Shown: positions 1 to 18,911 of the stretch, piece after piece | Numbering within the stretch: the stretch's first letter is position 1 | Layout of the letters: every line of letters starts with the position of its first letter | NCBI GenBank assembly: GCA_963662715.1 | Contig: OY759724.1 | Location: 3,293,845-3,357,844, forward strand | Length of the DNA: 64,000 nt | Direction of reading: 5' to 3' | From: Candidatus Omnitrophota bacterium | GTDB taxonomy: Bacteria > Omnitrophota > Gorgyraeia > Zapsychrales > JANLHA01 | Notes under the pieces: generated by a model | What the model was told of the DNA's origin: nothing | Seen by the model: only the letters and a program-made list of their open reading frames with translations | Databases searched by the model: none | Made by a program: the position numbers and the translations under genes

Positions 1-941
1 GTCTCACCAATGCCTTCATTAACACATTCGGCGGCTTTATTTAACTTCATCTCTTTGAGTTTTTGATAAATCGCCTGGGCTTTGTTAAAGGCGGCTGACG
101 AACATTCTTGGGCATGAATAGCTTTTAGCATGGTGGCAACCGTCTTAATTTTTCCGTTTGGCACATAACGGAAAACATTTCTGTAGAAATGAACCATACA
201 TCTTTGCCATTTAGCCATGGGATATATTTCTTCTGCGGCATTGAGCAATCCCAGACATTTATCGGTGATCAATAATTGAATCCGGTTAAGTCCTCGTTGC
301 TTTAAATGTCTCATCAACGCTTGCCATCCCGTCTTGTCTTCCCGGGCCCCCTCTATAATCCCGATGATCTTTCGATATCCATGCCAATCAACTCCTATGG
401 CAATTAAGACGGATACATTGCTGACTTCACCACCCCAGCTCCGCTTTAAGCTAATCCCATCCATATAAACATACGGATATTCTTCATCTAAAGGCTCATG
501 TCTCCATTGATTGATCCGTTCATAGATCTTCTTGTTTACTCGGCTGACTGTGCTAGCCGATACTTTTGATCCCCATAATGCTTCAGTTATATCTTCAACT
601 CGTCTTACCGACACTCCTGCTAAATACATCTCCATCATCGCTTCTTCTACTGATATCTCTCGTCGTTTATATCGTTCAACTATGGCTGTCTCAAACGGTA
701 ATTTTCTTAGCTTCGGCATTCTTAATTTTACTTTTCCTACTCGTGTCTGCAATTGCCGCTCATAATAGCCCGCCCGTGTGTCCTTCCGGGCTTCTGTGCG
801 TTGATATCTCTCGGCTCCAACCAAGTGATCGGCTTCTGCATTCAATAAATTATTCAATGTCTCTTCCACGCTGCCCCGAATCTTCTCATCAAGTTTTTCT
901 TGGATTTTTTCTTCATTAACTGTAATAATAGTATTGTTCAT
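1..941 (-). mobile_element. IS256-family (mutator-type) transposase, partial; the 3' end runs off the left window edge
   Basis: The reverse-complement translation from the ATG at 941-939 (AGGAGG RBS just upstream) reads MNNTIITVNEEKIQEKLDEKIRGSVEETLNNLLNAEADHLVGAERYQRTEARKDTRAGYYERQLQTRVGKVKLRMPKLR...VHFYRNVF..., which matches the conserved IS256/MULE transposase N-terminal and DDE-region motifs. It is absent from the ORF track because no stop codon lies inside the window. Confidence 0.85.
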
Positions 942-1065
942 TGAGTCCTCCTTTTTGGTTAGGTTTGGTTGCCTAGTTATTATACCAATTGGAGGACTTT
1001 TTTTGTCCCTTCTGCAAATGTGCGAAAAATATTATACGTTATCCCAGGAGAAACATCTGTTGCGA

Positions 1066-1143
1066 GGACTGTCTGAGCGAAAAGGGTTCTCCCTCTCCGT
1101 GGAAAGCTAATTTATTTGCCCTGTCCCTTTTTGGGGACTGGCA
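1066..1143. repeat. Copy A of a two-module intergenic repeat: 'GAGCGAAAAGGGTTCTCCCTCTCCG' followed by the 'TTGCCCTGTCCC-N6-GGGGACTGGC' hairpin module
   Basis: Near-identical to the element at 11552-11616. The hairpin module also occurs at 10411-10437, and a half-copy at 12758-12776. All four sit at or just past the 3' end of a minus-strand gene. Confidence 0.5.
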
Positions 1144-1166: not shown

Positions 1167-1628
1167 TTACAGAAGGAATAAACATACAATCAATGACAAA
1201 ATATAGAATGTTAGGGAGACAATAAGAACAAAAAGAATATAAAAAATACTTCTAGAAATATTTTTAGCGAAAAATGATAACGTATTTAAAGGAATTAAAA
1301 ACAGTATACAACCTACCCCCCCTAATAATGCACCTTCTAAATGAGAAAAAGATATCAATCTACTACTTAAAGCCCCTAGAATAAATCCAACTACGGAACC
1401 CAACAATAATCTTTTAAGTATAAATTTAAAATAGCTATTCTTATCAGTTTCTAACATTTCACTTAAATTATGACTTAATACAATCCCTACGCCTAAAATA
1501 ACAAAAAATAAAATTTCACTAATATCTTTTCCAATAAATAAGATTGAATAGATACCCCCCAAAATAATAGCAAGGAGAATTAGTCGAAAATTAACGAATA
1601 AAAGATCTTTAAAAGATTTAATACTCAT
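1167..1628 (-). CDS. Small polytopic membrane protein (153 aa); candidate cognate immunity protein for the upstream RHS toxin
   Basis: The ORF begins 13 nt after the RHS stop, with an AGGAGA-like RBS. It is very hydrophobic (I/L/F-rich, about 4-5 predicted TM segments). An ORF directly downstream of the toxin is the canonical immunity position in RHS/polymorphic-toxin loci. Confidence 0.45.
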   Translation of the reverse strand: MSIKSFKDLLFVNFRLILLAIILGGIYSILFIGKDISEILFFVILGVGIVLSHNLSEMLETDKNSYFKFILKRLLLGSVVGFILGALSSRLISFSHLEGALLGGVGCILFLIPLNTLSFFAKNISRSIFYILFVLIVSLTFYILSLIVCLFLL

Positions 1629-1640
1629 ATACCATATCTC

Positions 1641-4600
1641 CTATTTTGGACAAATTTTATTTAATTCTTCCTTCGCCCTATTGTACTCCTCATTTCCAAT
1701 TTCACCGAGATCATCCCAAGGCAGATTTGGATTAATTTCTTTTAACTCCTCAAGCAATAAATCACCCTCTTCTTTTGACTTATCTAACATCTCATTTAAT
1801 TCTTTTAAATCTTGAGAAGTCAATTCACCTTTGTCGTAAATTTCTTTTGTTCTTTCTTCTCGCTTTTGAATATTTTTAATATCTTTTAATGTAAGTTTAT
1901 CAGCGATAGCTTCAGCCATTGCGTTTCTAGTTTTTTCACTTATTTTAGGTAATTTAGATTTAATTTGGTCAGAAATTTTATTCCTTGCAATTCTCCATAC
2001 TGGATTGGACTTCATCGGACCTCTAGGTACTAATCCAAAAGAATCAATCAAGTTAACTGGATCATCCAAAGCGTAAACATATAGATCCGCATCCCCATCG
2101 GCAAAGCCAATCGGGTCTTTGGCAGTCCAACGGCCGGTCTCGGGCGAATAATCTCTCATCCCAAAGCGAACGAGGCCAGTATCCCGGTCATGCAAACCCC
2201 CTGCGAACCCGAAAGGCACCTCAAAGGACGGGTCAGAATCAGCAATGATGTTGCCGAATGAATCATAGTCGATCTGCTTGATGATGGTTCCGGTTGAATC
2301 CGCAACAGCCCGCAAAGAGCCGACCTGGTCATACGTCAGGTAATACGTGGTCCCTGACTTGTTCATGCTAAGCGGCATGCGGCTGTCAGCATATTCAAAC
2401 CGCATCAGGAGATTATCCGAGCCATCATAAATAGCGAGTAATCGCGTTAACCCAAGCCATAAATACTTCTCGGTAATACTTCCATTGACTACCTTGGCGA
2501 TCCGCCGGCCTAAAGGATCATGTTGATAGGTGATGATATCGCCTGAAGGCAAGTCGACCTGCAGCAGTTCCCCTCTCGAAGAATAATCATAAGATGTTGT
2601 ATCCGCGCCATCAACCTTATTCCACAGGAAACCATCCTGATCATACTGATAGGTCGCTGTTCCTACGCTTAAGAGCTGATCCTCAGTATTATATGATAAA
2701 GAACGTCCCGCAATCCCCCTTAAACTGTTCATCTCATACGTCCGCACTCCCAGGGGATCAGTATCATTATAGCGGTATTCCTCTACCAGCACACCATCTT
2801 TTTCCACATGCGTCAACCGCCCCACCTCATCGTAAGTGTAAACATAATTTACGTTTACCCCAGCTACCGATTCCGACTTGGTCGCGATCTGTCCGTTATT
2901 ATCATGCGTCAGCGTCCAGGACGAAACGGCTGTCCCGCTCACCGACGACGCCTGACTGGCCACTTCCCCGTAACCGTTAAAGGTGCGCACCGTATCAAAT
3001 GTCCCGTTGCCCACCCCCTCCGGCAGACCGTTCGACGCATTATTCGTAATAATAAAGCCCGAAGCCTGCGTGAGGAGCCCGTCATCATCGTAGATGTAAT
3101 TGCTCGTCCCCCCGGCATAGGTGAAAGCGGTGAGGTTGAAATCATCGTTGTAAGTGTAAGACAAGGTTTGACTGACCGTTCCCAATAAAGTCTGGGAGGT
3201 GAGCAGGTCCCCGTCATAACCATAGAAGATCTGCTCCCCGCCTTTAGAGGTGGACTGCACCTGGCCCGATGCCAGGTAGCTCAGACTCACATGGCCTTCC
3301 GGGGTCTGAATCTCAGTGAGCTGCCCGCCGGTGTAAACATTCACGATCTGCGCGCCGGAAGGATAGGTGGTCTGCGTGAGCCGCCGGTCCCGGTCATACG
3401 TATAGGTCGTGGAACCGGAAAGCGGCGGGTCGTATTCTTCCGCGAGGTTAACGTTATTATATTGAAAACCATGGTCAATGCCTGACGGGTTGGTCAGCAC
3501 CGTCATATTGCCGTTGTTGTCATAATCATAATACAGGTCGGTACCGTCCGGCCGGTGCACCGCTGTGGTGCGGCCCAAGGCGTCGTACTCAAAGGTGGTC
3601 AGATGGTTTTCCGGGTCAAGGATCGAATAGACGTTGCCGTCAGCGTCATACTCAAATCTTGTCTGGCGCGTCCCGGTCTGCACGGTTTCAACCCGGCCCC
3701 GGGTATCATAGGTGTAACTTGTATCTAACAGCCCCGGCACGCTCACGCTACTGGTCAGCAAAGTTGCCGGATCATACGTGGTTGTCACCACCCGGCCTTC
3801 CGGGGACGTGGCCGTGCTCTGAGACGTTAACAGATCCTGCACCACGGCTGTCGTCTTTCCGTTGAGGGAAGCCGTGCGGGTAATACGGTCGGTATCCCCA
3901 TCGGAATTCGTATCTTCATAGAGCCGGTTATAAACCATCTGGGCGGTTAGCCCGGCCGGGGTGACGGTCGTTGCCTGCCGCGTATATTTAAAGCGGTATT
4001 TGGGATCATAATCTATAATATATTCCCGCTCGGTTTCATTCGGCTGGGTGACCTGGGTCGTGAAGCCGTCGGATGACCGGAAATACACCGTGGAATTCGT
4101 ACTGGATGACGTGGTCACGGTGGTCTGCGCCCCGCCGGCAACCTCCTGGTCAAGATAGGTTGTGGCATAGCCTTCAACCGTGGTCACTCCTGATTCCACA
4201 TCACCGCTGACCAAAACCTGCCGGGTAAAAGGATTCTGCTTTCCGGCCTGGTCTTCAGTGGTGTTTATCCGGCCGTCAGCATTAAACGTGTGAATAAAGA
4301 AATTGCCGTTAGGTTCGGTTTCCTGAGTCATCAAGCCGTTGTTGTACAAGAAATGATACGCTGTCGCATCCGGGTAGCTGATCTGGCTGAGCAGATAGCT
4401 GCTCGGGTTAACAGCCAGTTCTGTCCGTATGCCGTCCGGAGAAATAATGGCCGTCGGCACCCCTCCGGCGGTGCGTTCGACCGTGACCTGATTGCCGAAC
4501 CTATCGGTCACTGAAACCAGCCGGTCGCTGGCATCATAATTAAAAGTTTCCAAGACCATACCTGTATTCAGGTCCACCGTCTCTTTATGCCGGCCGTCGG

Positions 4601-7600
4601 CATAAAAAATATACCCCACGCCTTCTTCAATAAACTGATTATCGGTCGGGTCGGAAGAAAGGGCAAACGCCGTGCTTTGTGAAGCTTCGACCTTGCGGAC
4701 GCGCTTATTGTACCAGTCAGCGATATACACGCTGCCGCCGTCATCCACCGCCACGTCCTGGGCATAACTTATCTGGGCTTCGTTCGCCGGGCCGCCGTCC
4801 CCGCTGAACCCGCTCAGCCCGGTGCCGGTTATGGTCGTGATGATCCCGTTGGTATCGACTTTACGGACCACGGAAAAGTAAAGTTCGCCGATATACAAAT
4901 TTCCGTTGGTGTCCATAGCCAGACCGTTTGGATTCGGCAAGCCTGCGCTGGTGGCCGGGCCGCCGTCCCCGCTGGGTTCTATGATATCCCCGCCCTGCCA
5001 GATTTTTCCGGCCACGGTTGTGATAATACCGCTGGCCGCATCGACTTTACGGACCCGGCTGTAATCCGCGATATAAAAATTGTCCGAACTGTCTACGATG
5101 ACGTTTTTGGCATTGGTCAGAATAACGGACGCGGCCGGGTCTCCGTCATCATAATAAGGAAGGCCTCCTCCGGCAACAGTGGTGATGATCCCGCTGGTAT
5201 CGACTTTTCTTATCCGCAGGTTCCCTGAATCAGCGATATAAAGATTGCCCGCGCTGTCCACGGCAATGCCGGAAGGGGCATTGAGCTTCGCAGATGTGGC
5301 CGGGCCGTTATCCCCGCTGAACCCGACACTCCCGTTACCGGCTACAGTGGTGATAATCCCGCCGGTGTCGATCTTACGGATACAATTGTTCCCATTATCC
5401 GCGAAGTAAATGTTGCCCGTATTGTCCACGGTCAACCTGCGGGGATTGTTCAAACCGGCAGAGGTCGCCGGGCCGCCGTCCCCGGTGTAATCCGCGCTGC
5501 CGTTACCGGCAACATGGTAAATATATCCGTCCGGTTCGACTCTGAAAATACGGTTGGAATAATATAAGGCAATATAGAAATTACCGGAACTGTCCGTGGC
5601 CAGACCGGAGATATGGCTCATATCCCTGTTTACCGCCAGCGGATCTGCCCCGTTGCCGTTACCCGGATCCCCAGTCCCGGCAACCGTCGTGATAATCGTG
5701 CTCCCGGACTCAAGCTGACGGCCGTTGCCTTTATTGAGGATCCTCGTATCTTTAGGAGTAATGAACAGGTGATGGTGGTTGGATAAAGTCCAGCCTTCGG
5801 CAAGTTTGCTCGGTAAAGCGGCTATGTTATAAAGGGTCTGCATCTCCTCTGTCCAGGAGATGATTTCATTCCGGGCCGGAACTTCGGTGACGGTTGTGCC
5901 CGGAGTGCCGAAGGACGGCATGGTCGGGGTTGAGCCGAAACCGTAATAGATCGCGTCATACACAAAACCGACACGGATCGAAGCGGTCGGGGCCAAGACT
6001 CTTTGCCCTAAATAATCCAAACCGTCCCAGGAAAACACCGCCTGCTGGTCCGGCAAGGCCGGAAGCGTCTGTTCAAATAAACGTCCGCCCACTTCAACCT
6101 GGACAATAATTTCTTTTAAACTGGCCGGCACGGTGGAACCGCTGGCCGGAACGGTAATGACCGTGTGATACCCGCCCGTGCGGCTGGTGGCATAATGCAG
6201 GGTCAGGCCGGTCCCGGCAACAGGGATATCTTCATGATAAACCCGGCTGCGGCAAGAGACGTAAGAATCTTCAGAAACATCGCTTCTAACGGCATGAGCT
6301 TTACATTGATCTGTCTGCTGTTCGACATTAGAGCTTTTTCCGGAATTCGGGTCAGTCGAACCTTCCGGAGGGCCGGACGGATAATTGCAGTCCCAGGCCG
6401 AAAAATGAGGCACCTCAACCCGCCAGTATGTATCGCCGGGTGTGTATTCAGATGGGTCATCAAGTCCCGCAACTTCATCCGCATAATCTCCGTCACTGTC
6501 CAGATCATCCGGAAGAAAATCGCCGTCCATATCCAGGCTGTCAACAATACCGTCGCTGTTATCATCCAGCAGGGTCACCACCCTGCCGTTTTCTGAAGCG
6601 ATCCATTCCGCCTGGTCCGGGTCGTAATATCCGACCGGAACAATTTCCCCCACGTCAAACCCTAAAAAGTTATCGATCCAGGTGATAACCGGGTTCTCAA
6701 ACCGCACGTTGGCAACACCGTCCACGCTCAATTCCACACAATACGTGTAGGATGTGGTCGGCGGCAGGATCGCGGGCATGGATTCCGGGGTTTTAAACTC
6801 CGTGGCCCGGATGGTCATCGTCGAAAGAGCGAAAAGGTCATCGCCGTTTTCATCAACGGCAAAAGCCTGATTGTCGCCGGTCATCACCACAGTGGCTTTA
6901 CGGGTGCCGAACGTGTCGGTCACCGGGCTGCTTTCATGCAGCAACACGGTTTGTGCATTGCCGTCCAGGGTAAGTGTCGTGGCTTTTTGGTCTTCGGCTA
7001 ATAATACCGGGGTTTCAACAATAACCACATCGTTGATAGGCACCTCGACTTTACGGTACGCGGTTATCAGCCCCTGCTTTTGAAAAATCACGTTAAGAGT
7101 TGCGTCGCCTTCAACCGGCAGAGAATATTCGCCGCTGGTGTCGGTCTGTACTGTGCCGTATTCCGGATGACCGTCAATTGTGACCAGGACATCAGGAACA
7201 GGGTCGTCATAAATATCCAGCACCTGGCCTCTTATCACGGCAAAAGTATCCGGATCGTATTCTGCGATAGTGGCATCGTCCGGGACAAGCTGTTCATATT
7301 GCTGGCCGTAAGCCCCGTCCGGCTGAGAAGCAGGTTCCGACTGCACGGAAACCAGCACCTGCGCGCTGGCCGAGCCGTTAGGCCCGGTGGCCGTGACAGT
7401 ATACGTTGTCGTATGCTGGGGCGTCACTTCGAGTGTTCCGCTCACCCCGACAGCCCCCATATCCTGATCCATATACACGTCATAAGCATCTGTTGACGTC
7501 CAGGAAAGGGTTGTGGATTCTCCGGCCTGAATCACCGCCGGGTTGGCGGAAATTTCAATAGCGGGCCGTCCATCATCCACCAAAACTGTTACGGTATCTC

Positions 7601-9956
7601 TGGCCGTGCCTTCGGGCCCGGTCGCGGTAATGGTATAAGTCGTATCCGTGACCGGATAAACAGCCACAGCCCCGTTAGGATCTACTGCTCCGATTTCAGG
7701 TTCGATCGTACAAGTATCCGCATCCGTGGAAATCCAGTACAGGGTTGTAAACTCCCCGGCCTGAATCGCCGTAGGCTCCGCCTCAATGCTCACGGTCGGC
7801 GGAAGCGTGGTATATTCGGTGACGACATCAAAATTCGTGTCATGGTTCAGCCAGCCGTTGGCATCGCCATACTGAATATAATAATAGGCGATATCATTAT
7901 CAGCGATATCTCCGTAATCCGGGATACTAGTCCAGGCAAATGTCACTGTTATTGTATCCGTGCCGATCACGACTTCGCTGTCCCCAGCCTGCAAATTTAT
8001 GAATTCAGAGCCGTACCCGCCTTCCTTAATAAACCCCGTATCCTTATACCAGCTTAAGTATCCCCGGTTGGGATTGCCCGAATCATCCTGGTAATTGATC
8101 AGAATCGACACCCTCTCCATGGAATCCGGTTCCGGCACGTTAAACACCAAGGTCGCCTTCTGCACATCCGCACTATTGGCCAGCACGGTTTGTTTATCCA
8201 CAGTCAAAGAAGAAAGGCCGGCCCGCATATCCTGCACGTCAAAGTTCGTGTCATGGTTCAGCCAGCCGTTGGCATCGCCATACTGAATATAGTAATAGGC
8301 GATATCATTATCCGTTATGCCGCCGTAATCCGGCAGACTCCTCCAGGCAAACGTCACGGTTATTGTATCCGTGCCGGTCACGATTTCGCTTTCTGCTGTC
8401 TGCAAATCGATGTACTGAGAGCCGTAACCGCCTTCCTTAATAAATCCCGTATCCTTATACCAGCTTAAATACCCCCGGTTGGGATTGCCCGAATCATCCT
8501 GGTAATTGATCAGAATCGACACCCTCTCCATGGAATCCGGTTCCGGCACGTTAAACACCAAGGTCGCCTTCTGCACATCTGCACTATCAGCCAGCACGGT
8601 CTGTTTATCCACGGTCAGGGAGCCTAAACTTGCCCGCATGTCCTGCACGTCAAAGTTCGTGTCGTGGTTCAGCCAGCCGTTAGCGTCGCCATACTGAATA
8701 TAGTAATAGGCGATATCATTATCCGTTATGCCGCCGTAATCCGGCAGACTCCTCCAGGCAAACGTCACGGTTATTGTATCCGTGCCGGTCACGATTTCGC
8801 TTTCTGCTGTCTGCAAATCGATGTACTGAGAGCCGTAACCGCCTTCCTTAATAAATCCCGTATCCTTATACCAGCTTAAATACCCCCGGTTGGGATTGCC
8901 CGAATCATCCTGGTAATTGATCAGAATCGACACCCTCTCCATGGAATCCGGTTCCGGCACGTTAAACACCAAGGTCGCCTTCTGCACATCTGCACTATCA
9001 GCCAGCACGGTCTGTTTATCCACGGTCAGGGAGCCTAAACTTGCCCGCATGTCCTGCACGTCAAAATTCGTGTCATGGTTCAGCCAGCCGTTAGCATCGC
9101 CATACTGAATATAGTAATAGGCGATATCATTATCCGTTATGCCGCCGTAATCCGGCAGACTCCTCCAGGCAAACGTCACGGTTATTGTATCTGTACCGGT
9201 CACGACCTCGCTGTCCCCGGCCTGCAAATCGATGTACTGAGAACCGTAACCGCCTTCCTTAATAAATCCCGTATCCTTATACCAGCTTAAATACCCCCGG
9301 TTGGGATTGCCCGAATCATCCTGATAATTGATCAGAATCGACACCCTCTCCATGGAATCCGGTTCCGGCACGTTAAACACCAAAGTCGCCTTCTGCACAT
9401 CCGCACTATTGGCCAGCATGGTCTGTTTATCTACGGTCAGGGAACCTAAACTCGCCCGCATGTCCTGCACGTCAAAGTTCGTGTCATGGTTCAGCCAGCC
9501 GTTAGCGTCGCCATACTGAATATAGTAATAGGCGATATCATTATCCGTTATGCCGCCGTAATCCGGCAGACTCCTCCAGGCAAACGTCACGGTTATTGTA
9601 TCTGTACCGGTCACGACCTCGCTGTCCCCGGCCTGCAAATCTATAAATTCAGAGCCGTAACCGCCTTCCTTAATAAATCCCGTATCCTTATACCAGCTTA
9701 AATACCCCCGGTTGGGATTGCCCGAATCATCCTGGTAATTGATTAATATCGAAACCCTTTCGATTGTCTCGGGTTCGCTGGTGCTGAATTGCAAAGTCGC
9801 TGTCTGAAGGTCAGAATTATTAGCCAGCACCGTTGTTTTCCCGACAGTTAAAGACTCCAAGACCGCGGGATCTTCGGCAAAAACCGGAGAAGAAAAACAG
9901 GCGATTAATAATACGGCGGCTACTCCTTTGAGAATTTTTTTGCAGTGGCTGGACAT
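1641..9956 (-). CDS. Secreted RHS/YD-repeat (teneurin-like) polymorphic toxin, 2771 aa
   Basis: Domains read from the translation, N- to C-terminus: a Sec-type signal peptide (MSSHCKKILKGVAAVLLIACFSSPVFA); five tandem 137-aa repeats; two Ig-like domains; a CarboxypepD_reg-like domain; DxDGD Ca-binding-like acidic clusters; NHL-type beta-propeller repeats (…GNLYIADSGNLRIRKVDTSGIITTVAG…); many YD repeats (YDxxGRL/YxYDxxG); and the RHS core terminus RFGMRDYSPETGRWTAKDPIGFADGDADLYVYALDDPVNLIDSFGL. A ~135-aa charged C-terminal tip of unknown function follows. Confidence 0.9.
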   Translation of the reverse strand: MSSHCKKILKGVAAVLLIACFSSPVFAEDPAVLESLTVGKTTVLANNSDLQTATLQFSTSEPETIERVSILINYQDDSGNPNRGYLSWYKDTGFIKEGGYGSEFIDLQAGDSEVVTGTDTITVTFAWRSLPDYGGITDNDIAYYYIQYGDANGWLNHDTNFDVQDMRASLGSLTVDKQTMLANSADVQKATLVFNVPEPDSMERVSILINYQDDSGNPNRGYLSWYKDTGFIKEGGYGSQYIDLQAGDSEVVTGTDTITVTFAWRSLPDYGGITDNDIAYYYIQYGDANGWLNHDTNFDVQDMRASLGSLTVDKQTVLADSADVQKATLVFNVPEPDSMERVSILINYQDDSGNPNRGYLSWYKDTGFIKEGGYGSQYIDLQTAESEIVTGTDTITVTFAWRSLPDYGGITDNDIAYYYIQYGDANGWLNHDTNFDVQDMRASLGSLTVDKQTVLADSADVQKATLVFNVPEPDSMERVSILINYQDDSGNPNRGYLSWYKDTGFIKEGGYGSQYIDLQTAESEIVTGTDTITVTFAWRSLPDYGGITDNDIAYYYIQYGDANGWLNHDTNFDVQDMRAGLSSLTVDKQTVLANSADVQKATLVFNVPEPDSMERVSILINYQDDSGNPNRGYLSWYKDTGFIKEGGYGSEFINLQAGDSEVVIGTDTITVTFAWTSIPDYGDIADNDIAYYYIQYGDANGWLNHDTNFDVVTEYTTLPPTVSIEAEPTAIQAGEFTTLYWISTDADTCTIEPEIGAVDPNGAVAVYPVTDTTYTITATGPEGTARDTVTVLVDDGRPAIEISANPAVIQAGESTTLSWTSTDAYDVYMDQDMGAVGVSGTLEVTPQHTTTYTVTATGPNGSASAQVLVSVQSEPASQPDGAYGQQYEQLVPDDATIAEYDPDTFAVIRGQVLDIYDDPVPDVLVTIDGHPEYGTVQTDTSGEYSLPVEGDATLNVIFQKQGLITAYRKVEVPINDVVIVETPVLLAEDQKATTLTLDGNAQTVLLHESSPVTDTFGTRKATVVMTGDNQAFAVDENGDDLFALSTMTIRATEFKTPESMPAILPPTTSYTYCVELSVDGVANVRFENPVITWIDNFLGFDVGEIVPVGYYDPDQAEWIASENGRVVTLLDDNSDGIVDSLDMDGDFLPDDLDSDGDYADEVAGLDDPSEYTPGDTYWRVEVPHFSAWDCNYPSGPPEGSTDPNSGKSSNVEQQTDQCKAHAVRSDVSEDSYVSCRSRVYHEDIPVAGTGLTLHYATSRTGGYHTVITVPASGSTVPASLKEIIVQVEVGGRLFEQTLPALPDQQAVFSWDGLDYLGQRVLAPTASIRVGFVYDAIYYGFGSTPTMPSFGTPGTTVTEVPARNEIISWTEEMQTLYNIAALPSKLAEGWTLSNHHHLFITPKDTRILNKGNGRQLESGSTIITTVAGTGDPGNGNGADPLAVNRDMSHISGLATDSSGNFYIALYYSNRIFRVEPDGYIYHVAGNGSADYTGDGGPATSAGLNNPRRLTVDNTGNIYFADNGNNCIRKIDTGGIITTVAGNGSVGFSGDNGPATSAKLNAPSGIAVDSAGNLYIADSGNLRIRKVDTSGIITTVAGGGLPYYDDGDPAASVILTNAKNVIVDSSDNFYIADYSRVRKVDAASGIITTVAGKIWQGGDIIEPSGDGGPATSAGLPNPNGLAMDTNGNLYIGELYFSVVRKVDTNGIITTITGTGLSGFSGDGGPANEAQISYAQDVAVDDGGSVYIADWYNKRVRKVEASQSTAFALSSDPTDNQFIEEGVGYIFYADGRHKETVDLNTGMVLETFNYDASDRLVSVTDRFGNQVTVERTAGGVPTAIISPDGIRTELAVNPSSYLLSQISYPDATAYHFLYNNGLMTQETEPNGNFFIHTFNADGRINTTEDQAGKQNPFTRQVLVSGDVESGVTTVEGYATTYLDQEVAGGAQTTVTTSSSTNSTVYFRSSDGFTTQVTQPNETEREYIIDYDPKYRFKYTRQATTVTPAGLTAQMVYNRLYEDTNSDGDTDRITRTASLNGKTTAVVQDLLTSQSTATSPEGRVVTTTYDPATLLTSSVSVPGLLDTSYTYDTRGRVETVQTGTRQTRFEYDADGNVYSILDPENHLTTFEYDALGRTTAVHRPDGTDLYYDYDNNGNMTVLTNPSGIDHGFQYNNVNLAEEYDPPLSGSTTYTYDRDRRLTQTTYPSGAQIVNVYTGGQLTEIQTPEGHVSLSYLASGQVQSTSKGGEQIFYGYDGDLLTSQTLLGTVSQTLSYTYNDDFNLTAFTYAGGTSNYIYDDDGLLTQASGFIITNNASNGLPEGVGNGTFDTVRTFNGYGEVASQASSVSGTAVSSWTLTHDNNGQIATKSESVAGVNVNYVYTYDEVGRLTHVEKDGVLVEEYRYNDTDPLGVRTYEMNSLRGIAGRSLSYNTEDQLLSVGTATYQYDQDGFLWNKVDGADTTSYDYSSRGELLQVDLPSGDIITYQHDPLGRRIAKVVNGSITEKYLWLGLTRLLAIYDGSDNLLMRFEYADSRMPLSMNKSGTTYYLTYDQVGSLRAVADSTGTIIKQIDYDSFGNIIADSDPSFEVPFGFAGGLHDRDTGLVRFGMRDYSPETGRWTAKDPIGFADGDADLYVYALDDPVNLIDSFGLVPRGPMKSNPVWRIARNKISDQIKSKLPKISEKTRNAMAEAIADKLTLKDIKNIQKREERTKEIYDKGELTSQDLKELNEMLDKSKEEGDLLLEELKEINPNLPWDDLGEIGNEEYNRAKEELNKICPK
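7811..9866 (-). repeat. Five tandem near-identical 411-bp (137-aa) repeats encoding the N-terminal domain array of the RHS protein
   Basis: The protein repeats begin SLTVDKQTVLA...YLSWYKDTGFIKEGGYGSQYIDLQ...AWRSLPDYGGITDNDIAYYYIQYGDANGWLNHDTNFDVQDMRA, and copies 3 and 4 are identical at the protein level. Antisense ORFs in the track recur with exact 411-bp spacing (8095, 8506, 8917, 9328 and 8664, 9075, 9486). Confidence 0.85.
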
Positions 9957-12794: not shown

Positions 12795-13733
12795 TTATTT
12801 CCGTTTGACCGCTTTCTTGGCCGCGACCGCGATATCCACATCTTTCAGATGATAGGCTTTGAGCAGTTCCTGCGGAGAACCGGTTTCCCCGAAACGGTCC
12901 TGTACGGCAACCATCTCCATGGGAACAGGACAAAAACGCACAAGCACTTCCGCCACAGCGCTGCCCAGCCCGCCGTGGATCTGGTGCTCTTCAGCCGTAA
13001 CAATCGCCCCGGTTTCGGCTGCCGCCTGCTGGATGGCGGAAATGTCGATCGGCTTAATCGTGTGCATATTGATCACACGGGCCTCGATCCCGTCCTTCTT
13101 CAATATCTCTGCGGCCTGCAGGGACTCGTAGACCATGAGTCCGCAGGCAATAAGAGTGACATCCGTGCCTTCTCTCATGACCACAGCCTTGCCGACCTCA
13201 AAAGGATCCGACTCTTTGGTCATAACCGGAAAAGGCGCCCGGGACGTTCTCATGTAAACAGGGCCTTCTGCCTGGCTGATCACGCGCGTGGCTTTGGCGG
13301 CTTCAACGGCATCCACCGGGCAGATCACCTGTATATTCGGAAGGACACGCATAATCGCCAAATCCTCCAGGCATTGCGCGGAAGCGCCGTCTTCCCCGAC
13401 CGTAATCCCGGCGTGGGAACAAACAAATTTCACATTGCGGTTGTTATAGCAGACGTCCAGCCGGATCATATCATAAGCGCGGTTGGTCATGAAAACGGCA
13501 AAAGAACAGGCAAACGGGATAAAGCCATGGAAACTCAACCCGGCCGCCGTGCCCACGACATCCTGTTCGGCTATCCCCAGGTTATAAAATCTCTCGGGAA
13601 AAGCTTCCTTAAAATATTCCGCCCGGGTCGCGTCTTCCAAATCACCGGATAAGACCACAATTTTCTCATTCGTTTTTCCTAATGCCACCAGTTCATTGCC
13701 GAAACCGTCCCTGGTCGGGATCATTTCACTCAT
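12795..13733 (-). CDS. Transketolase, C-terminal (pyrimidine-binding/C-terminal) subunit of a split transketolase
   Basis: The sequence YNLGIAEQDVVGTAAGLSFHGFIPFACSFAVFMTNRAYDMIR... is typical of the TktB-type subunit. Confidence 0.85.
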   Translation of the reverse strand: MSEMIPTRDGFGNELVALGKTNEKIVVLSGDLEDATRAEYFKEAFPERFYNLGIAEQDVVGTAAGLSFHGFIPFACSFAVFMTNRAYDMIRLDVCYNNRNVKFVCSHAGITVGEDGASAQCLEDLAIMRVLPNIQVICPVDAVEAAKATRVISQAEGPVYMRTSRAPFPVMTKESDPFEVGKAVVMREGTDVTLIACGLMVYESLQAAEILKKDGIEARVINMHTIKPIDISAIQQAAAETGAIVTAEEHQIHGGLGSAVAEVLVRFCPVPMEMVAVQDRFGETGSPQELLKAYHLKDVDIAVAAKKAVKRK

Positions 13734-13762
13734 CTTTTTCTCCTGTTGACTTCTCTGTAAAT

Positions 13763-14599
13763 TTAATTCGAATTAACCTGTTCCAATTCCGTTAAAGCAG
13801 CCTGCAGCTGGTCCGCCTTCGGCGCCTTGCCGTGCCACTGGGATTTTCCCTCCATGAAAGACACGCCTTTGCCTTTAACCGTATGGGCGATGATAACAAA
13901 AGGCTTTTCCGGGACGCTGTCAAACTGGTCCAGCGCGCTGAACAATTCATGAAAATCATGTCCGTTCACCTCAACGGCATGCCACCCGAAACTGTTCCAT
14001 TTGGATAAAAGCGGCTCAAGGTTCTTGATGTCATTCGTCGGACCGTTTTCCTGGACTTTATTATAATCAACGATGGCGCACAAATTATCTAATTTATAAT
14101 GGGCGGAGGTCATGGCCGCCTCCCAGATGGATCCTTCCTGGATTTCCCCGTCGCCTAAAATACAGTAGGTCTTAAAATCTTTTTTCAGCATCTTGGCGCC
14201 CAGGGCGATGCCGTTGGCCACAGCCAGGCCGTGACCGAGCGACCCAGTATTAAATTCGACGCCGGGTGTCTTGACATGGACATGCCCCTGCAGAGGGCTG
14301 CCGTACTTGCGGTAACGCTTCAGCTCCTCTTCCGGGAAATATCCGCTGTCGGCCAAAGCCACATAAGCGACCGGAGTGCAGTGCCCCTTGGAAATAATGC
14401 ATCTGTCCCGGTCCGCCCAGTCAGGGTTATCCGGACGATGGTTCATTTTATAATGATACAGCGCGATAAAAATCTCCACGGCCGAAAGAGAACCGCCGGG
14501 ATGGCCGGAACCGGCAGAATGGACGATTTGTAAAATCTTCTTCCGGAATTCTGTTGCCTTTTCTTTCAGTTCGTTCATATCAACTCTTTTGGTTGTCAC
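13763..14599 (-). CDS. Transketolase, N-terminal (TPP-binding) subunit of a split transketolase
   Basis: The sequences HSAGSGHPGGSLSAVEI...GSLGHGLAVANGIALG...ILGDGEIQEGSIWEA are TPP-binding motifs. Confidence 0.85.
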   Translation of the reverse strand: MTTKRVDMNELKEKATEFRKKILQIVHSAGSGHPGGSLSAVEIFIALYHYKMNHRPDNPDWADRDRCIISKGHCTPVAYVALADSGYFPEEELKRYRKYGSPLQGHVHVKTPGVEFNTGSLGHGLAVANGIALGAKMLKKDFKTYCILGDGEIQEGSIWEAAMTSAHYKLDNLCAIVDYNKVQENGPTNDIKNLEPLLSKWNSFGWHAVEVNGHDFHELFSALDQFDSVPEKPFVIIAHTVKGKGVSFMEGKSQWHGKAPKADQLQAALTELEQVNSN

Positions 14600-15101: not shown

Positions 15102-15575
15102 TTAATTGAATAAAATAAAGGTAATGATTCCGCCCATGTATCCCAGGAAAACCGGGAAGCTCATTTTCCGGACATACCAGCCAAAGTCCATTTTCTCCAT
15201 GCCCATCACGACCACACCCGCCGCAGAGCCGATAACCAGCAAACTTCCCCCTGTCCCCACACAATAGGCAATGAGCTGCCAAAGCGGCGCGTCTTTGGGA
15301 TAAACGTTGACATCAAACATCCCCATGGTTGAAGCCGTTAAAGGGACATTATCCACCACAGAGGATGTGACACCCAGGAAAGCGACCATGACATTCTTGT
15401 TCCGGAACATTGTGTCCAGCACATGAGCGATTCGCAACAGGATGCCGGCTGAATCCAGAGCCGCAACGGTTAGAAGGATGCCTAAAAAAAACAGAAGACT
15501 CGAATAATCGACTTGTTTCAATATGCGCGGGACCTGAAGCCTGGCCTTCTTTTTATGGGCTTTGTCCGTATACAC
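15102..15575 (-). pseudogene. C-terminal fragment of a disrupted NhaD/ArsB-superfamily ion transporter gene
   Basis: The fragment reads ...VVDNVPLTASTMGMFDVNVYPKDAPLWQLIAYCVGTGGSLLVIGSAAGVVVMGMEKMDFGWYV... and is the apparent continuation of the N-terminal fragment at 18144-18911. The two are separated by about 2.6 kb that carries an IS1182 transposase and an orphan RHS tip cassette. Confidence 0.5.
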
Positions 15576-15960
15576 CGATAGTGTCGGAAAACCTATTGTA
15601 GAAACAAATCTGTACTCTTATACCGGAAATGACCCCGTAAATTGGATAGATCCTTTGGGTTTGTTGAAGAGGGATCATCGTTTCTGGGAGAATGTCAAAG
15701 AAGGGGTAATGAATAATCTTAAAAAGAAGTATGCTAAGTTTAAGAAAGAGAATCCCTGTGAAGAAGCTCCGCCAATTGCCGGGGAAGATTTGGAGAGCTC
15801 ATTAGATAAATTTGCAGAAGCTTTTGCCGATGAATTAACAGAGAAAGAATTCGGTTTCTTGGGCAGGGGCGTTGAAAAAAATAGTGATGCTGTTAAGGAA
15901 CGCTTAAAAATTAAATATCCTGATTGGCCATGGGAAGAATGGGACATAATTTTTAAATGA
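15562..15960 (+). CDS. Orphan RHS C-terminal fragment: residual core end plus alternative toxin tip (132 aa)
   Basis: It begins ...YTDSVGKPIVETNLYSYTGNDPVNWIDPLGL, which is the RHS core terminus (PxxxxDPxGL motif), followed by a ~100-aa charged tip. There is no upstream RHS body, and the ORF starts with TTG inside the transporter fragment. Confidence 0.6.
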   Translation: MSVYTDSVGKPIVETNLYSYTGNDPVNWIDPLGLLKRDHRFWENVKEGVMNNLKKKYAKFKKENPCEEAPPIAGEDLESSLDKFAEAFADELTEKEFGFLGRGVEKNSDAVKERLKIKYPDWPWEEWDIIFK

Positions 15961-16334
15961 GAAATAACCTGAGAGAGCACGTTCCAAGGCGGAAACTAAT
16001 ATTGGGATGTTTTATGGGGTTTTGCTTTGGTATTCTAATAATCGTTTGCGGGGATTTTGTTTCAAATATTCCGAATTATTCAAGCAGCTTTTTCCTGAAT
16101 TCAATTTATTGGGTATGTACCTATTTAGCCAGTGTGGCGGCAATACTGGCAAAGCTAATATTAGGAACATTCTTTAATAAATGGTACTCAGTGGTATTAA
16201 ATTTAATCGCATTGATGTATTTTTCAGTATTGGGAATGTGTTGTGTTGTTCTGTTTAGAAGGGGTAAAAAAATTTTTATATTTGTTTTCATTGCTCTTCT
16301 GGTCGTTCATGGAGCAGGTCTGTATTTATTCTGA
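15957..16334 (+). CDS. Small polytopic membrane protein (125 aa); candidate immunity protein for the orphan RHS tip
   Basis: It overlaps the orphan tip ORF by 4 nt and is hydrophobic with about 4 TM segments, the same architecture as the 1167-1628 ORF that follows the full-length RHS. Confidence 0.4.
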   Translation: MRNNLREHVPRRKLILGCFMGFCFGILIIVCGDFVSNIPNYSSSFFLNSIYWVCTYLASVAAILAKLILGTFFNKWYSVVLNLIALMYFSVLGMCCVVLFRRGKKIFIFVFIALLVVHGAGLYLF

Positions 16335-16448
16335 GATGTCCGTAATTTCAAAAAGGGATTTTCCTGTAAAATAATATATAAAACAATAATGTCGTCGAGA
16401 TTATGAAGTATAATAGAGGTGTCCGAATAAAAGAAAGGAGCCTCTTGA

Positions 16449-18044
16449 ATGTTAAAGAATCCCCAAAACCAAGCCTCATTTTTTGATGCTGAGTATATCT
16501 GCGAAGACTTAATCCCTGCCGATAGTTACTACCGCAAGTTCAGGGAAATAGTCTTCCCGCTCATGGATGAGTTGGATTTTGAATCCATGTATTGTCAGGA
16601 TAATGGCCGTCCGCCGATCTCGCCGAAGTTGTTGGCCATGGCGTTGCTGTTGCAATTCCATAAGAATTTGTCAGATCGGGGAATGGAGCGGGCATGCATG
16701 TATGATATTGAGATCAAGTATGCCTTGGGATTAAAACTCAACGAGCGACCGTTCGATCATTCAAGTCTGGGAGATTTTAGGAAGCGATTGTATGAGCATG
16801 GACAAAGCAAGAGGGTTTTTGACCAGATACTCAACAAGTTGATTGAGGCAGATTTGATAGAGCGTGATGAAATTCAGCGGATTGATGCGACGCATATGAT
16901 TGCTGATATTGCGATACCGACGGTGGTGGCGTTGGTCAAGAAAGGCATTCGTGAAATATTAAAACCGTTGAAAGGCCAAAAGCCCGAGTTATACGCTAAG
17001 GTTATAAAAAATATCGATGTCGAAGAATATACGCGGGAAAAAGTCAACCAGGCGGATGAAGGACGGCTGGATATTGAGAAACGGCAAAGAAAGCTGGTCA
17101 AGGTCGTTACCGATGCGCGAAACCTTTTGAGAGAAGTCGAGGATGTTAACATGAGTCGTGGATTGCGAAAGCGGATTGAATTGCTTCAGAGGATACTGCA
17201 GGAGAACGTTAAGGAAGCCGACGAGGGCAAGATTGAGGAACGCAAATATAAAGATAAACCGCCGGACTTGCTGGTAAGTCCGATTGACGAAGACGCGCGG
17301 TATGGCGCAAAGTCGGATACAAAAAGATTTATGGGATACAAGGCAAATGTGACAGAGAGTGTGAAAAATCGGTTGATCACAAATATTGAAGTGATGCCCG
17401 GAAACAGACGGGATGGTGAGCCGACAGTGAAGATGGTGGTGGAGCAGAAACTGAACGGATTAGTCCCTAAGAAGCTGGTAGGAGACGCGGCGTACGCGGA
17501 CGGGATGTATAGAAAATTGCTCAAAGATAATGAAACCCTGCTGGTCGCACCGTTAAGAAAAGTTAATGAAAGTGCACAAAAAATTTACCCCAAAAGCATG
17601 TTTTATTACGATGAGAAAACAGGAACAGTAACGTGTCCGCAAGGCGTAAAAACAAAAACATGTTTTGAAGATCGTCGCCATGGGTTAAAGCAATTTCATT
17701 TTCCGATGAGCGCGTGCAATCAGTGTGGCGTTCAGAAAGAGTGTACAAAAGCAAAAGAAGGACGCCGGACGATAGGGATCAGTATCTTTAATAAAGAGCT
17801 GCGCGAAGCCGAAGTATACAACGAAACAGAACAATTCAAAAAGGACATGAAGCTGCGTCCACCGATTGAAGGAAAGCTGTCGGAGTTGACGCGGTATCAC
17901 GGCTTAAGGCGCGCACGATATCGAAGGTTATATAAAGTGCGGCTTCAGGGTTATTTTACAGCGGCTGCGGTGAACATCAAGCGGTGGTTCAAGCTGATTA
18001 TCGAAGGAATAGCAAGGCACCCGGAGGTTGCGATGGGCTTTTAG
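16449..18044 (+). mobile_element. IS1182-family (IS5 group) transposase, 531 aa, apparently intact
   Basis: The N-terminal GRPPISPKLLAMALLLQFHKNLSDRGMERACMYDIEIKYALGL...FDHSSLGDFRKRL and the C-terminal YHGLRRARYRRLYKVRLQGYFTAAAVNIKRW are hallmark IS1182-family motifs. Confidence 0.8.
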
Positions 18045-18143
18045 AAGATTGAAGGGCGTAAAATAAGTGCGCCCCAAAAATAATGCTCTTTGAAACTGGA
18101 CCAAAAGTCCAACGGCGGAAAAATACCGGGTTTTCAGACGGTA

Positions 18144-18911
18144 TCACACCCATAATAACCCTAATCCCAATAAAACGCTCAGATAAGGCGGCAGATCGAA
18201 AACGGCTTTTAAAACAGGGACCAGCAATAAAGCACCCGTCCCTATCAAAAAGACCGTATTGGTTTCAACGGAGCTGACGCACCGCACTGGCATAAGCCCC
18301 TTGGCGTTTTTGCCCTTGATCCGGAAAGAGAAATACAACAAAGGAAGCAATACGCTCACGAGACTGGAAAAAAACACTTTTTGAATCACCGCAGCAGATG
18401 TTAGATATCCTTTTATCCACAACATTGTTGTTGTCACATCCCCTATAGGCGTCCACGCCCCGCCGGCATTCGCCGCGACAATAATCATGCTGGCGAAGGT
18501 CAGGCGCTCTGCTGTTTTCGGCAGGAATTGATGCAGAAGCGTCATCATAATGATAGACGTTGTCACAAAAGCGGAAAGGAAGAACGTCATGAACGTGGTC
18601 AGCCAAAGCAGGGACAAATGGCTCCTGGCCTGAATCAGGCGGGAAATAACGCAAAAGCCGTGATAAGAATCAATAATTTCCACGATCGTCATCACCCCCA
18701 TCAAGAAAAAGAATATCTGTGCGATATCCGAGACATGGTCATTCAGCTGCTGGAGCACCACGGCATCATGATGCCAGCTGTCGATTAAAACAATGCTCCA
18801 GCAAAAGAAAGCGAGCAGTATCGCGACGGCAGATTTATTCACTTCAAACTTCTGTTCGAAAGAAATAAAAACATAGCCGCCGATAAAAACAATTAAGAGG
18901 ATGATATCCAT
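18144..18911 (-). pseudogene. N-terminal fragment (255 aa) of the same disrupted NhaD/ArsB-superfamily transporter gene
   Basis: The fragment is polytopic and contains ...ANAGGAWTPIGDVTTTMLW... . It ends with a stop codon immediately before the inserted segment. Confidence 0.5.

What the first reader, a model, noticed from the sequence alone, without database searches (positions are those of the whole stretch)
15562..18143. Displaced orphan RHS tip plus immunity cassette, carried with an IS1182 transposase inside a disrupted transporter gene
The ORF at 15562 begins with a residual RHS core end (LYSYTGNDPVNWIDPLGL) and then an alternative ~100-aa tip, followed by a 125-aa membrane protein, which matches the toxin-immunity module layout. 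The cassette lies about 14 kb from the main rhs gene and on the opposite strand, and it sits next to an intact IS1182-family transposase. Together these occupy the gap between the two halves of an NhaD-like transporter gene (15102-15575 and 18144-18911). This looks like IS-mediated relocation of an rhs tip and immunity module that could be recombined back into the main rhs. Both tips end with a similar P-x-(L/W)-P-W-(D/E)-(D/E) motif (NPNLPWDDLGE versus YPDWPWEEWDI), which hints that they belong to one tip family.
Basis: partly seen in the sequence, partly recalled or inferred. Interest (0 to 1): 0.55.

Follow-up and report, generated by a model that had tools for sequence, protein, structure and literature searches.

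The report
Transposon that swaps RHS toxin tips
The toxin tip and immunity gene are not a stray fragment next to an insertion sequence but built-in cargo of an IS1182-type transposon whose left end is itself coding sequence, so that when it lands in an rhs toxin gene it replaces the toxin tip in frame; the copy in this window has landed off-target in a sodium/proton antiporter gene.

Summary
A 2569-bp insert (15577-18145) splits an nhaD gene. It is bounded by 17-nt imperfect inverted repeats and a 5-bp duplication (ACACC), and removing it in silico restores one 411-aa NhaD reading frame. The interpretation needs changing. The RHS core end, tip and membrane ORF lie inside the inverted repeats. 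The left repeat itself encodes DSVGK, followed by NLYSYTGNDPVNWIDPLGL, the tip, an immunity-type ORF and the IS1182 transposase. Every related element whose left end could be read (15 copies, transposases 60-87% identical) has this layout, with differing cargo. In at least five unrelated rhs lineages the element sits at the same codon, position 64 of the 76-position RHS-associated core domain. It is in frame there, with a perfect 5-bp duplication in every copy where both flanks could be read, and the host's own tip and immunity gene are pushed downstream. Two of three non-rhs sites, including this nhaD site, mimic the rhs target DNA (Y-V/T-x-N-N-P), which suggests sequence-directed insertion. 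The source genome holds at least two further copies with the identical tip, one fused to an rhs fragment. Eight full-text literature searches found no description. Toxicity, immunity, autocleavage and transposition are untested.

The parts
15572..15576 (.). Left copy of the 5-bp target-site duplication (ACACC)
   Evidence: Identical pentamer at 18146-18150. Deleting the element plus one copy restores the nhaD frame.
15577..15593 (+). Left inverted repeat (IRL) GATAGTGTCGGAAAACC, which also forms codons D-S-V-G-K-P of the adaptor
   Evidence: 14 of 17 complementary to 18129-18145. The same 17-mer, with at most 2 changes, sits at the left end of 15 related elements.
15577..15663 (+). Adaptor coding sequence DSVGKPIVETNLYSYTGNDPVNWIDPLGL: a replacement for the end of the RHS-associated core domain, including the DPxGL motif
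   Evidence: Matches TIGR03696 positions 57-76 of 76. Conserved at the DNA level with L001, L002, L003 and L008 (element positions 1-88).
15664..15960 (+). Cargo toxin tip, 98 aa plus stop, all-helical, function unknown (motifs AEAFAD and YPDWPW)
   Evidence: Homologues are C-termini of RHS proteins directly after DPxGL (P0127-P0130). AF2 model pLDDT 92.9. No PDB fold match and no Pfam match.
15957..16334 (+). Cargo immunity candidate, 125 aa, about 4 transmembrane segments, start codon overlapping the tip's stop
   Evidence: ORF and hydropathy. The same slot in L001 holds an ORF that hits Pfam Imm32. No family match for this protein.
16335..16448 (+). Spacer before the transposase gene; the conserved IS backbone resumes at about 16409-16434
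   Evidence: blastn of the window element against eight others: similarity resumes at element positions 833-858 in the six closer relatives (L001-L003, L005-L007) and only inside the transposase gene (903-1011) in L008 and L010. Promoter-like matches are at chance level.
16449..18044 (+). IS1182-family DDE transposase, 531 aa, intact
   Evidence: NF033551 342 bits (cutoff 270), full profile length. 400 database proteins with E <= 1e-50.
18129..18145 (-). Right inverted repeat (IRR), GATACCGTCTGAAAACC read inward
   Evidence: The identical IRR occurs in L003, L008, L009, L010, L012 and L013.
18146..18150 (.). Right copy of the target-site duplication (ACACC)
18146..18911 (-). 5' part of the disrupted nhaD gene
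   Evidence: CitMHS positions 1-215. Rejoined ORF matches NhaD.
15102..15576 (-). 3' part of the disrupted nhaD gene. Its antisense strand at the junction reads V-Y-T|H-N-N-P-N-P-N, mimicking the rhs target.
2054..2081 (-). Unoccupied candidate landing site in the main rhs (DLYVYA|LDDPVNLIDSFGL; the pentamer that would be duplicated is about 2070-2074)
   Evidence: Second-best match in the whole window to a 28-nt matrix built from occupied rhs sites; rank 409 with the 12-nt matrix. Sequence.
1641..9956 (-). Main rhs/teneurin-type gene, 2771 aa; its tip is a distant relative of the cargo tip
   Evidence: Pfam TEN_YD-shell, RHS_repeat, NHL. Tip comparison.
1167..1628 (-). Immunity candidate of the main rhs, 153 aa, multi-pass membrane protein
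   Evidence: No significant similarity to the cargo immunity candidate.

Best explanation
Window 15577-18145 is one transposable unit: an IS1182-family element that carries an RHS toxin tip and its immunity gene as built-in cargo. Its left inverted repeat is coding sequence (DSVGK) and opens a 29-codon adaptor that re-creates the end of the RHS core domain (NLYxYTGNDPxNxIDPLGL). The variable tip, an overlapping immunity ORF, the transposase and the right repeat follow. When the element inserts into an rhs gene between the codons for ..LYxY(V/C) and xNNPxNxxDPxGL (position 64 of the 76-position core domain), the host RHS shell reads straight through the left repeat into the new tip. The new immunity gene comes with it. 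The host's former tip and immunity gene are pushed behind the transposase as a promoterless orphan. Shown here: the unit's boundaries, the coding repeat, the conserved layout with variable cargo, in-frame occupancy of one codon position in unrelated rhs genes, and recent mobility. Inferred: the fused protein is cleaved at the adaptor's DPLGL, delivered and toxic; the second ORF gives immunity; and the transposase (or a partner) recognises the DNA that encodes Y-V-x-N-N-P. The window copy is an off-target insertion into an nhaD sequence that mimics this site. There the tip has no RHS shell and is probably inert, nhaD is inactivated, and the intact element could still move into the unoccupied site of the main rhs about 13.5 kb away.
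For: The unit and its ends: IRs and the ACACC duplication lie exactly at the nhaD junctions, and excision restores NhaD.

The same architecture appears in all 15 related copies whose left end is present: window, L001 (2 copies), L002-L008, L010, L012 and L013 (3 copies). Perfect 5-bp duplications were found in 8 of the 9 elements with both flanks available: ACACC, ATGTT twice, ACTGT, ACGTT, ATGTC, ACGTG and AACAT. The stacked L013 array shows the same pentamer ATGTG at its left flank and at both internal junctions.

The backbone is conserved at element positions 1-88 and from about 833-858 to the end; the segment between them is variable.

In-frame rhs fusions: the upstream in-frame host ORFs are 135-1100 aa long. 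The host part matches TIGR03696 positions 1-64 and the adaptor supplies positions 57-76. After the right repeat the host sequence continues as xNNPxNxxDPxGL plus a different tip and a small ORF. An uninterrupted paralogue in L001 reads DLYGYV-ESDPINFVDPYGL.

The host cores share only 22-51% amino-acid and 47-60% nucleotide identity, apart from the L001/L002 pair (88% and 78%). Spread by homologous recombination therefore cannot explain the shared position.

Clean non-rhs insertions occur in nhaD (window) and in an ABC-F ATPase gene (L008). In L008 excision restores the ORF, and the adaptor frame differs from the host frame.

Target mimicry: a matrix was built from the 12 nt to the right of the duplication at six rhs sites. 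With it the nhaD site ranks 1 of 122,830 positions in the window and the L008 site ranks 18 of 11,838. Matrices of 9 nt and 16 nt also place both in the top 1.3%.

Recent mobility: two other loci in the source genome carry the identical tip, one fused to an rhs fragment (P0121 and P0123). The copies in L012 and L013 differ by 1-2 nt in 2720.

Cargo identity: the tip's homologues are RHS C-termini. The L001 cargo ORF hits Imm32.
Against: Nothing functional was tested: transposition, autocleavage, toxicity and immunity are all unexamined. The insertion adds 16 residues between the two DPxG-type motifs of the RHS C-terminal aspartyl-protease plug. PMC8636562 describes these motifs as 17 residues apart with the second Asp catalytic, so cleavage of the fused protein is not guaranteed.

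One of three non-rhs sites (L012) does not resemble the rhs target in register; its rank lies between the 9th and 25th percentile depending on matrix length. L003 has non-matching flanks (ACGTG and ATATT).

The stacked elements in L013 abut a resident left repeat rather than an xNNP sequence. Target choice is therefore not explained by the right-flank motif alone.

In L001 the elements sit in 365-aa rhs fragments, not in the full-length gene. The sample is small: about 16 copies, mostly on short metagenomic contigs.
Confidence: 0.8

Rival explanations
1. Same element and same architecture, but no sequence-directed targeting. The transposase inserts at loosely defined T|A-rich pentamers anywhere, and rhs insertions at this codon are seen because only in-frame fusions at that point give a working toxin and are kept by selection.
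For: The duplicated pentamers are degenerate (ACACC, ATGTT, ACTGT, ACGTT, ATGTC, ACGTG, AACAT, ATGTG). The L012 site does not fit the rhs-derived matrix. The adaptor can only complete the core domain if it joins near position 64, so selection alone would narrow the observed positions.
Against: The two non-rhs sites with restored host genes have no selection for an rhs-like flank, and the motif lies antisense to or out of frame with the host gene. They nevertheless rank 1 of 122,830 and 18 of 11,838 against the rhs-derived right-flank matrix. The duplication starts at the same base of the Tyr codon in all rhs sites.
Confidence: 0.25
2. One reading: an ordinary IS1182 inserted beside an orphan rhs tip, and a one-off event (a surrogate end or composite mobilisation) carried that neighbouring fragment into nhaD.
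For: IS elements are often found near rhs orphan arrays. The tip is distantly related to the main rhs tip of the same window.
Against: The same left repeat and adaptor sit at the left end of every related element, across transposases 60-87% identical and with many different tips. The left repeat matches the right repeat in 14 of 17 positions and abuts the duplication. Other copies in the same genome carry the identical unit at other loci. There is no usable homology to the main rhs.
Confidence: 0.04
3. Assembly chimera: the insert in nhaD is a mis-join of repeated sequence.
For: Related elements are multi-copy and often break assemblies; several contigs equal one element in length.
Against: Both junctions carry the same 5-bp duplication, and excision restores an exact NhaD frame. 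The equivalent structure occurs in independent assemblies.
Confidence: 0.01

Closest known systems
Orphan rhs-CT/rhsI modules and tip replacement by homologous recombination (Salmonella LT2, PMC3967940; review PMC4436062)
   Same: A silent alternative tip plus immunity gene becomes expressed by fusion to the RHS core, and the previous tip is displaced. The boundary is the DPxGL motif.
   Different: Here the module is not a passive fragment with core homology downstream of the main gene. It sits inside a transposon, carries its own minimal adaptor instead of a core fragment, moves with 5-bp duplications to new loci and new genomes, and creates orphans itself by pushing the resident tip downstream.
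IS elements with passenger genes (the 'transporter IS' of ISfinder usage; own knowledge) and Tn3-family transposons carrying toxin-antitoxin or effector passengers (PMC7157771, PMC4337579)
   Same: A DDE transposon with extra genes between its inverted repeats; the cargo varies on a conserved backbone.
   Different: Known passengers are complete genes expressed on their own. Here the passenger is a gene fragment whose reading frame starts in the terminal repeat and depends on in-frame fusion to a target gene. The insertion site is one conserved codon position of that target family.
IS1182 family insertion sequences
   Same: Transposase is a full-length match above the NCBIfam cutoff; short terminal inverted repeats; short duplications.
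   Different: About 870 bp of adaptor, tip and immunity gene lie between the left repeat and the transposase gene; coding left repeat; apparent preference for rhs core-end DNA.
H-rpt (ISAs1-family) elements inside E. coli Rhs elements (own knowledge, not checked here)
   Same: A transposase-encoding element habitually associated with rhs loci, downstream of the core.
   Different: H-rpt belongs to another IS family and, as far as I know, does not carry the tip or fuse in frame. No sequence relationship was tested.
IS30- or IS911-type insertion next to a resident IS end, giving tandem IS copies (own knowledge)
   Same: L013 shows head-to-tail copies separated only by the 5-bp duplication.
   Different: This was seen in one locus only. 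The mechanism (end-targeting, circle integration or unequal exchange) was not resolved.

Membership tests
IS1182 family insertion sequence | Transposase scores above the curated cutoff of the family model over its full length | tested here: met
   NF033551 342.3 bits against cutoff 270, profile positions 3-488 of 488. Pfam DUF772 plus DDE_Tnp_1_6 plus DDE_Tnp_1.
IS1182 family insertion sequence | Terminal inverted repeats at both ends, flanked by a direct target duplication | tested here: met
   17-nt IRs with 14 of 17 matching, at 15577-15593 and 18129-18145; ACACC duplication; host gene restored on excision.
IS1182 family insertion sequence | Moves as a unit | tested here: inconclusive
   Indirect only. 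The identical tip occurs at two or more other loci of the source genome. 2720-bp copies differ by 1-2 nt at separate loci. Two host genes are restored by excision.
IS with passenger genes (transporter IS) | Non-transposition genes lie between the inverted repeats | tested here: met
   The tip and the 125-aa ORF lie between the left repeat and the transposase gene; this slot is variable in relatives.
RHS C-terminal toxin / immunity module | Tip preceded by the PxxxxDPxGL end of the RHS-associated core domain | tested here: met
   PVNWIDPLGL; TIGR03696 positions 57-76 of 76, E 5.3e-6.
RHS C-terminal toxin / immunity module | Tip is the C-terminus of a protein with an RHS/YD shell | tested here: not met
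   In the window only 13 non-RHS codons precede the element. The feature is met for a sister copy (P0123, core domain positions 1-64), for tip homologues P0127-P0130, and for related elements, including one behind a host rhs reading frame open for 1100 codons (L013).
RHS C-terminal toxin / immunity module | Downstream gene neutralises the tip; the tip is toxic | not testable with these tools
   Layout only: overlapping start and stop codons. No family hit for this ORF. A relative's cargo ORF hits Imm32 below the gathering score.
Orphan rhs-CT module (Poole/Koskiniemi sense) | Lies downstream of a main rhs and keeps a stretch of core homology that allows recombination with it | tested here: not met
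   Opposite strand, about 13.6 kb from the main tip, inside nhaD. 61% identity over 57 nt; longest exact match 12 nt.
NhaD Na+/H+ antiporter (the disrupted host gene) | Full-length match to the family model | tested here: met
   The rejoined ORF scores 110.6 bits on NF038006 NhaD_1 (cutoff 80). On TIGR00775 it scores 328 bits in one stretch 4-409, below that equivalog's cutoff of 577.

The most novel reading that the evidence does not exclude
A widespread clade of IS1182 transposons, found in Omnitrophota and in other metagenomic lineages, acts as a site-directed injector of toxin cassettes. The transposase complex recognises the DNA that encodes the universally conserved RHS core end. It inserts so that its coding terminal repeat fuses a new toxin tip, with its immunity gene, in frame to any rhs gene. 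Repeated hits build the orphan tip arrays seen behind rhs genes. This would be a natural in-frame gene-replacement transposon and a second route, independent of recombination, for diversifying polymorphic toxins and spreading them horizontally.
Probability: 0.5. Interest if true: 0.9.

Novelty: new variant of a known kind. Interest (0 to 1): 0.82.

Why it matters
RHS and other polymorphic toxins are thought to change their warheads by homologous recombination with nearby orphan modules. How new tips enter a genome, and how orphan arrays arise, has been left vague. This element gives a concrete and testable answer. A transposon brings a complete tip-plus-immunity cassette and plugs it in frame into the conserved end of any rhs gene, even ones whose cores share only 22-51% identity, and it leaves the old tip behind as an orphan.

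For transposon biology it is a rare case of a terminal inverted repeat that doubles as coding sequence designed to continue a target gene's reading frame. There are also signs of recognition of a protein-motif-encoding DNA target.

If the targeting is real, the transposase could be of practical interest as a sequence-directed DDE integrase. For annotation, it means that 'orphan tip next to a transposase' should be checked for this architecture.

Tried and rejected
Exact-sequence look-ups of the window transposase and of P0121 returned nothing, so the other copies in the source genome could not be read as DNA.

A profile of the adaptor was too short. When lengthened it gave only 9 short hits, because of the word index, so it could not serve as a census.

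The tip query in the indexed database found only itself plus one adaptor match. The full HMMER scan was needed to find the family.

The single metagenome DNA scan for the left repeat plus adaptor gave one decayed copy (L004). The viral-contig scan gave none. The genome-collection scan with the transposase gave one locus.

Promoter and terminator scans were at chance level.

Direct BLASTP of the two tips (E 0.001 over 36 aa) and of the two immunity candidates (no significant match) was not convincing on its own. Only the profile comparison supports kinship of the tips.

Rejected: recombination back into the main rhs, spread among rhs genes by homologous recombination, and misassembly.

The 28-nt target matrix is dominated by the conserved rhs left flank and gave weaker ranks for the pseudo-sites (379 of 122,798 and 109 of 11,806). 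I report it together with the right-flank matrices rather than choosing one.
Full report
**What is at the coordinates**

The flanking ORFs 18144..18911 and 15102..15575 (minus strand) match Pfam CitMHS positions 1-215 and 237-336.

A repeat search found a 17-nt inverted pair exactly at the two junctions: GATAGTGTCGGAAAACC at 15577-15593, and its imperfect complement at 18129-18145, with 14 of 17 positions matching (pair I6). Each arm abuts the pentamer ACACC (15572-15576 and 18146-18150). Deleting 15577-18150 in silico yields one 411-aa ORF. This ORF matches TIGR00775 NhaD in a single stretch (4-409 against 5-412 of 420) and NF038006 NhaD_1 above its cutoff.

The insert is therefore 2569 bp with inverted repeats and a 5-bp target duplication.

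**Contents of the insert**

- ORF 16449..18044 is a full-length IS1182-family transposase: NF033551 scores 342 bits against a cutoff of 270.
- The ORF that begins nominally at 15562 matches the last 20 positions of the RHS-associated core domain (TIGR03696 57-76 of 76, E 5.3e-6). It then runs into a 98-aa tip.
- A 125-aa ORF with about four hydrophobic segments overlaps the tip's stop codon.

The decisive point is position. All of this lies inside the inverted repeats, and the reading frame starts in the left repeat itself: GAT AGT GTC GGA AAA encodes D-S-V-G-K. Only 13 non-RHS codons of nhaD antisense sequence lie upstream.

**Related elements**

The transposase has many relatives: 400 proteins with E <= 1e-50, with a close clade at 71-87% identity and a large one at 60-66%. 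I read 15 loci.

Every copy whose left end is on the contig begins with the same 17-mer, with at most 2 changes. There are 15 such copies: window, L001 (2 copies), L002-L008, L010, L012 and L013 (3 copies). Each reads D-(S/N/T)-V-G-K, then a short linker, N-(L/P)-Y-x-Y-x-x-N-(D/N)-P-x-N-x-x-D-P-x-G-x, a tip, a small ORF, the transposase and the right repeat.

DNA comparison with the window element shows two conserved blocks: element positions 1-88, and from about 833-858 to the end. Between them lies a variable slot holding the tip and the second ORF. Tips differ between elements. One cargo ORF hits Pfam Imm32 at E 2.9e-5, below the gathering score.

Perfect 5-bp duplications flank 8 of the 9 elements for which both flanks were available.

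**Where the elements sit**

In L001 (both copies), L002, L005, L006, L007 and L013 the left repeat directly follows host rhs codons ..LYxY(V/C), in frame. The upstream open frame is 135 to 1100 codons long, except in L007, where the contig ends 10 codons upstream.

The host part matches TIGR03696 positions 1-64, so the element enters at position 64 and supplies positions 57-76 itself.

Where the contig continues beyond the right repeat and the duplicated pentamer (L001's first copy, L002, L005, L006, L007 and L009), the host sequence resumes as xNNPxNxxDPxG(L/H). A different tip and a small ORF then follow. In L001 an uninterrupted paralogue shows the empty site, DLYGYV-ESDPINFVDPYGL.

The host cores are unrelated lineages, sharing 22-51% amino-acid and 47-60% nucleotide identity, with L001 and L002 the only close pair. 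These are therefore independent insertions, not spread by homologous recombination.

One contig without DNA shows the same gene order: rhs, small ORF, transposase, two small ORFs.

In L013 three elements are stacked behind a host rhs reading frame that is open for 1100 codons upstream (called gene 1237 aa). Each junction reads right repeat, ATGTG, left repeat. The first two copies differ by 2 nt in 2720, and a third copy 150 kb away (L012) differs by 1 nt.

L014 and L015 keep the left repeat, adaptor, tip and a second ORF in an rhs fragment but have lost the transposase.

**The same genome**

Database proteins on the same 3.36-Mb contig as the 100%-identical transposase include the identical tip behind two other flanks. 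P0121 reads MSLYEYA|DSVGK.., and P0123 is an rhs fragment ending ..NRYSYV|DSVGK... Neither flank occurs in the window, so the genome has at least three copies, one of them in frame in rhs sequence.

**Target choice**

The non-rhs insertions are informative because no selection for a toxin fusion acts on them.

In the window the rejoined target reads, on the element's strand and frame, V-Y-T|H-N-N-P-N-P-N. This is antisense to nhaD. In L008 the element splits an ABC-F ATPase gene, and excision restores ..AELRDEQSRVLKPFEKNIEEL... There the site reads S-Y-V|M-S-N-P in a frame different from the host's.

I built a weight matrix from the 12 nt to the right of the duplication at six rhs sites:

| Site | Rank with the 12-nt matrix | Matrices of 9 and 16 nt |
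|---|---|---|
| Window nhaD site | 1 of 122,830 | within the top 1.3% |
| L008 ABC-F site | 18 of 11,838 | within the top 1.3% |
| L012 site | 5,784 of 37,744 | 9th and 25th percentile; no fit in register |

With a 28-nt matrix the ranks are 379 of 122,798 and 109 of 11,806, and the unoccupied site in the window's main rhs ranks second. L003 has non-matching flanks and is probably a recombinant between two copies.

I conclude that sequence-directed insertion is likely but not established. Selection for working fusions may also contribute.

**The cargo in the window**

A full HMMER scan found that the 98-aa tip belongs to a small family found at RHS C-termini directly after DPxGL (P0127-P0130). 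Conserved motifs are CPxIPG, AEAFAD and YPDWPW.

The AF2 model is confident (pLDDT 92.9) and all-helical. It has no PDB fold match and no Pfam match. The two membrane immunity candidates show no significant similarity. What the tip does remains unknown.

**Mechanism, and which steps are shown**

Shown here:
- the transposable unit and its boundaries;
- the coding left repeat;
- variable cargo on a conserved backbone;
- in-frame occupancy of one codon position in unrelated rhs genes, with displacement of the resident tip;
- recent mobility.

Inferred:
- the fused RHS is cleaved after the adaptor's DPLGL and delivers the new tip;
- the second ORF protects the host;
- the transposase recognises DNA encoding the core end.

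One caution applies. The insertion lengthens the spacing between the two DPxG-type motifs of the C-terminal aspartyl-protease plug by 16 residues. PMC8636562 describes these motifs as 17 residues apart, with the second Asp catalytic. Cleavage of the fused protein therefore needs testing.

In the window the element is off-target. The tip lacks a shell, nhaD is inactivated, and the main rhs about 13.5 kb away offers an empty site. Homologous recombination with that gene is implausible: identity is 61% over 57 nt, and the longest exact match is 12 nt.

**Comparison with what is known**

Tip replacement from orphan modules by recombination is established (PMC3967940, PMC4436062). IS elements and Tn3-family transposons with passenger genes are also known (PMC7157771, PMC4337579).

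Eight full-text searches combining Rhs or polymorphic toxin with IS1182, transposase, passenger, in-frame, cargo or Omnitrophota found no description of a transposon that carries an RHS tip behind a coding terminal repeat. The library lacks most subscription journals, so absence there is not proof of novelty.

I file the element as a member of the IS1182 family and as an IS with passenger genes. I do not file it as an orphan rhs module. I rate it a new variant of a known kind.

Noticed in passing
L013:6293-13100 (1.9-Mb contig ERZ25039512 contig_56649): Three elements are stacked head to tail behind an rhs gene (called product 1237 aa; 1100 codons open upstream of the first element). Each junction is right repeat, ATGTG, left repeat. 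The first two differ by 2 nt in 2720; the third has different cargo and a truncated transposase. This could be how orphan arrays are built, but the insertion point abuts a resident left repeat rather than an xNNP flank.
   Followed up: partly
L014:1532-2692 and L015:1753-2913: An rhs fragment with a perfect left repeat, adaptor, a different tip and a 168-aa ORF, but no transposase or right repeat. It looks like a fossil of the element. It lies next to a weak or faint Y1_Tnp (IS200/IS605-type) hit.
   Followed up: partly
L007:553-1719: A second, unrelated transposase gene (DUF4372 plus DDE_Tnp_1, IS4-like) is nested inside the cargo region of an element, making that copy 3855 bp long.
   Followed up: no
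window 300-1100 (minus strand): One reading frame gives ...YPYVYMDGISLKRSWGGEV, which I recognise (not tested against any library) as an IS256/mutator-type transposase motif, but no long ORF remains. It is probably a decayed IS just downstream of the main rhs immunity gene. It was also the top hit of the 28-nt target matrix, by chance resemblance (YPYVY).
   Followed up: partly
window 45511-63945 (minus strand): A single 6144-aa ORF. A preprint on giant genes in Omnitrophota (10.1101/2023.11.21.568195) appeared in the literature search. The closest loci to this window are Omnitrophota MAGs, so the source is probably of that phylum.
   Followed up: no
window 1641-9956 (minus strand): The main rhs has teneurin-type TTR, FN-plug, NHL and YD-shell domains. 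Its N-terminus carries about five near-identical repeats of roughly 125 aa (…RGYLSWYKDTGFIKEGGYGS…).
   Followed up: no
L003:361-2889: This element has perfect repeats but non-matching flanks (ACGTG on the left, ATATT on the right), and a short rhs-like remnant (EDVQGYRYV) lies to the left. It is probably the product of recombination between two copies.
   Followed up: partly
L004 (JGI contig Ga0182022_1207526): A decayed copy at a non-rhs flank, with frameshifts in both the tip and the transposase. It shares the ACGTG left flank pentamer with L003 and L008, although the upstream sequences differ.
   Followed up: partly
window 12795-14599 (minus strand): Two adjacent ORFs (278 aa and 312 aa) look by eye like the N- and C-terminal halves of a split transketolase. 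They were not scanned and are unrelated to the finding.
   Followed up: no
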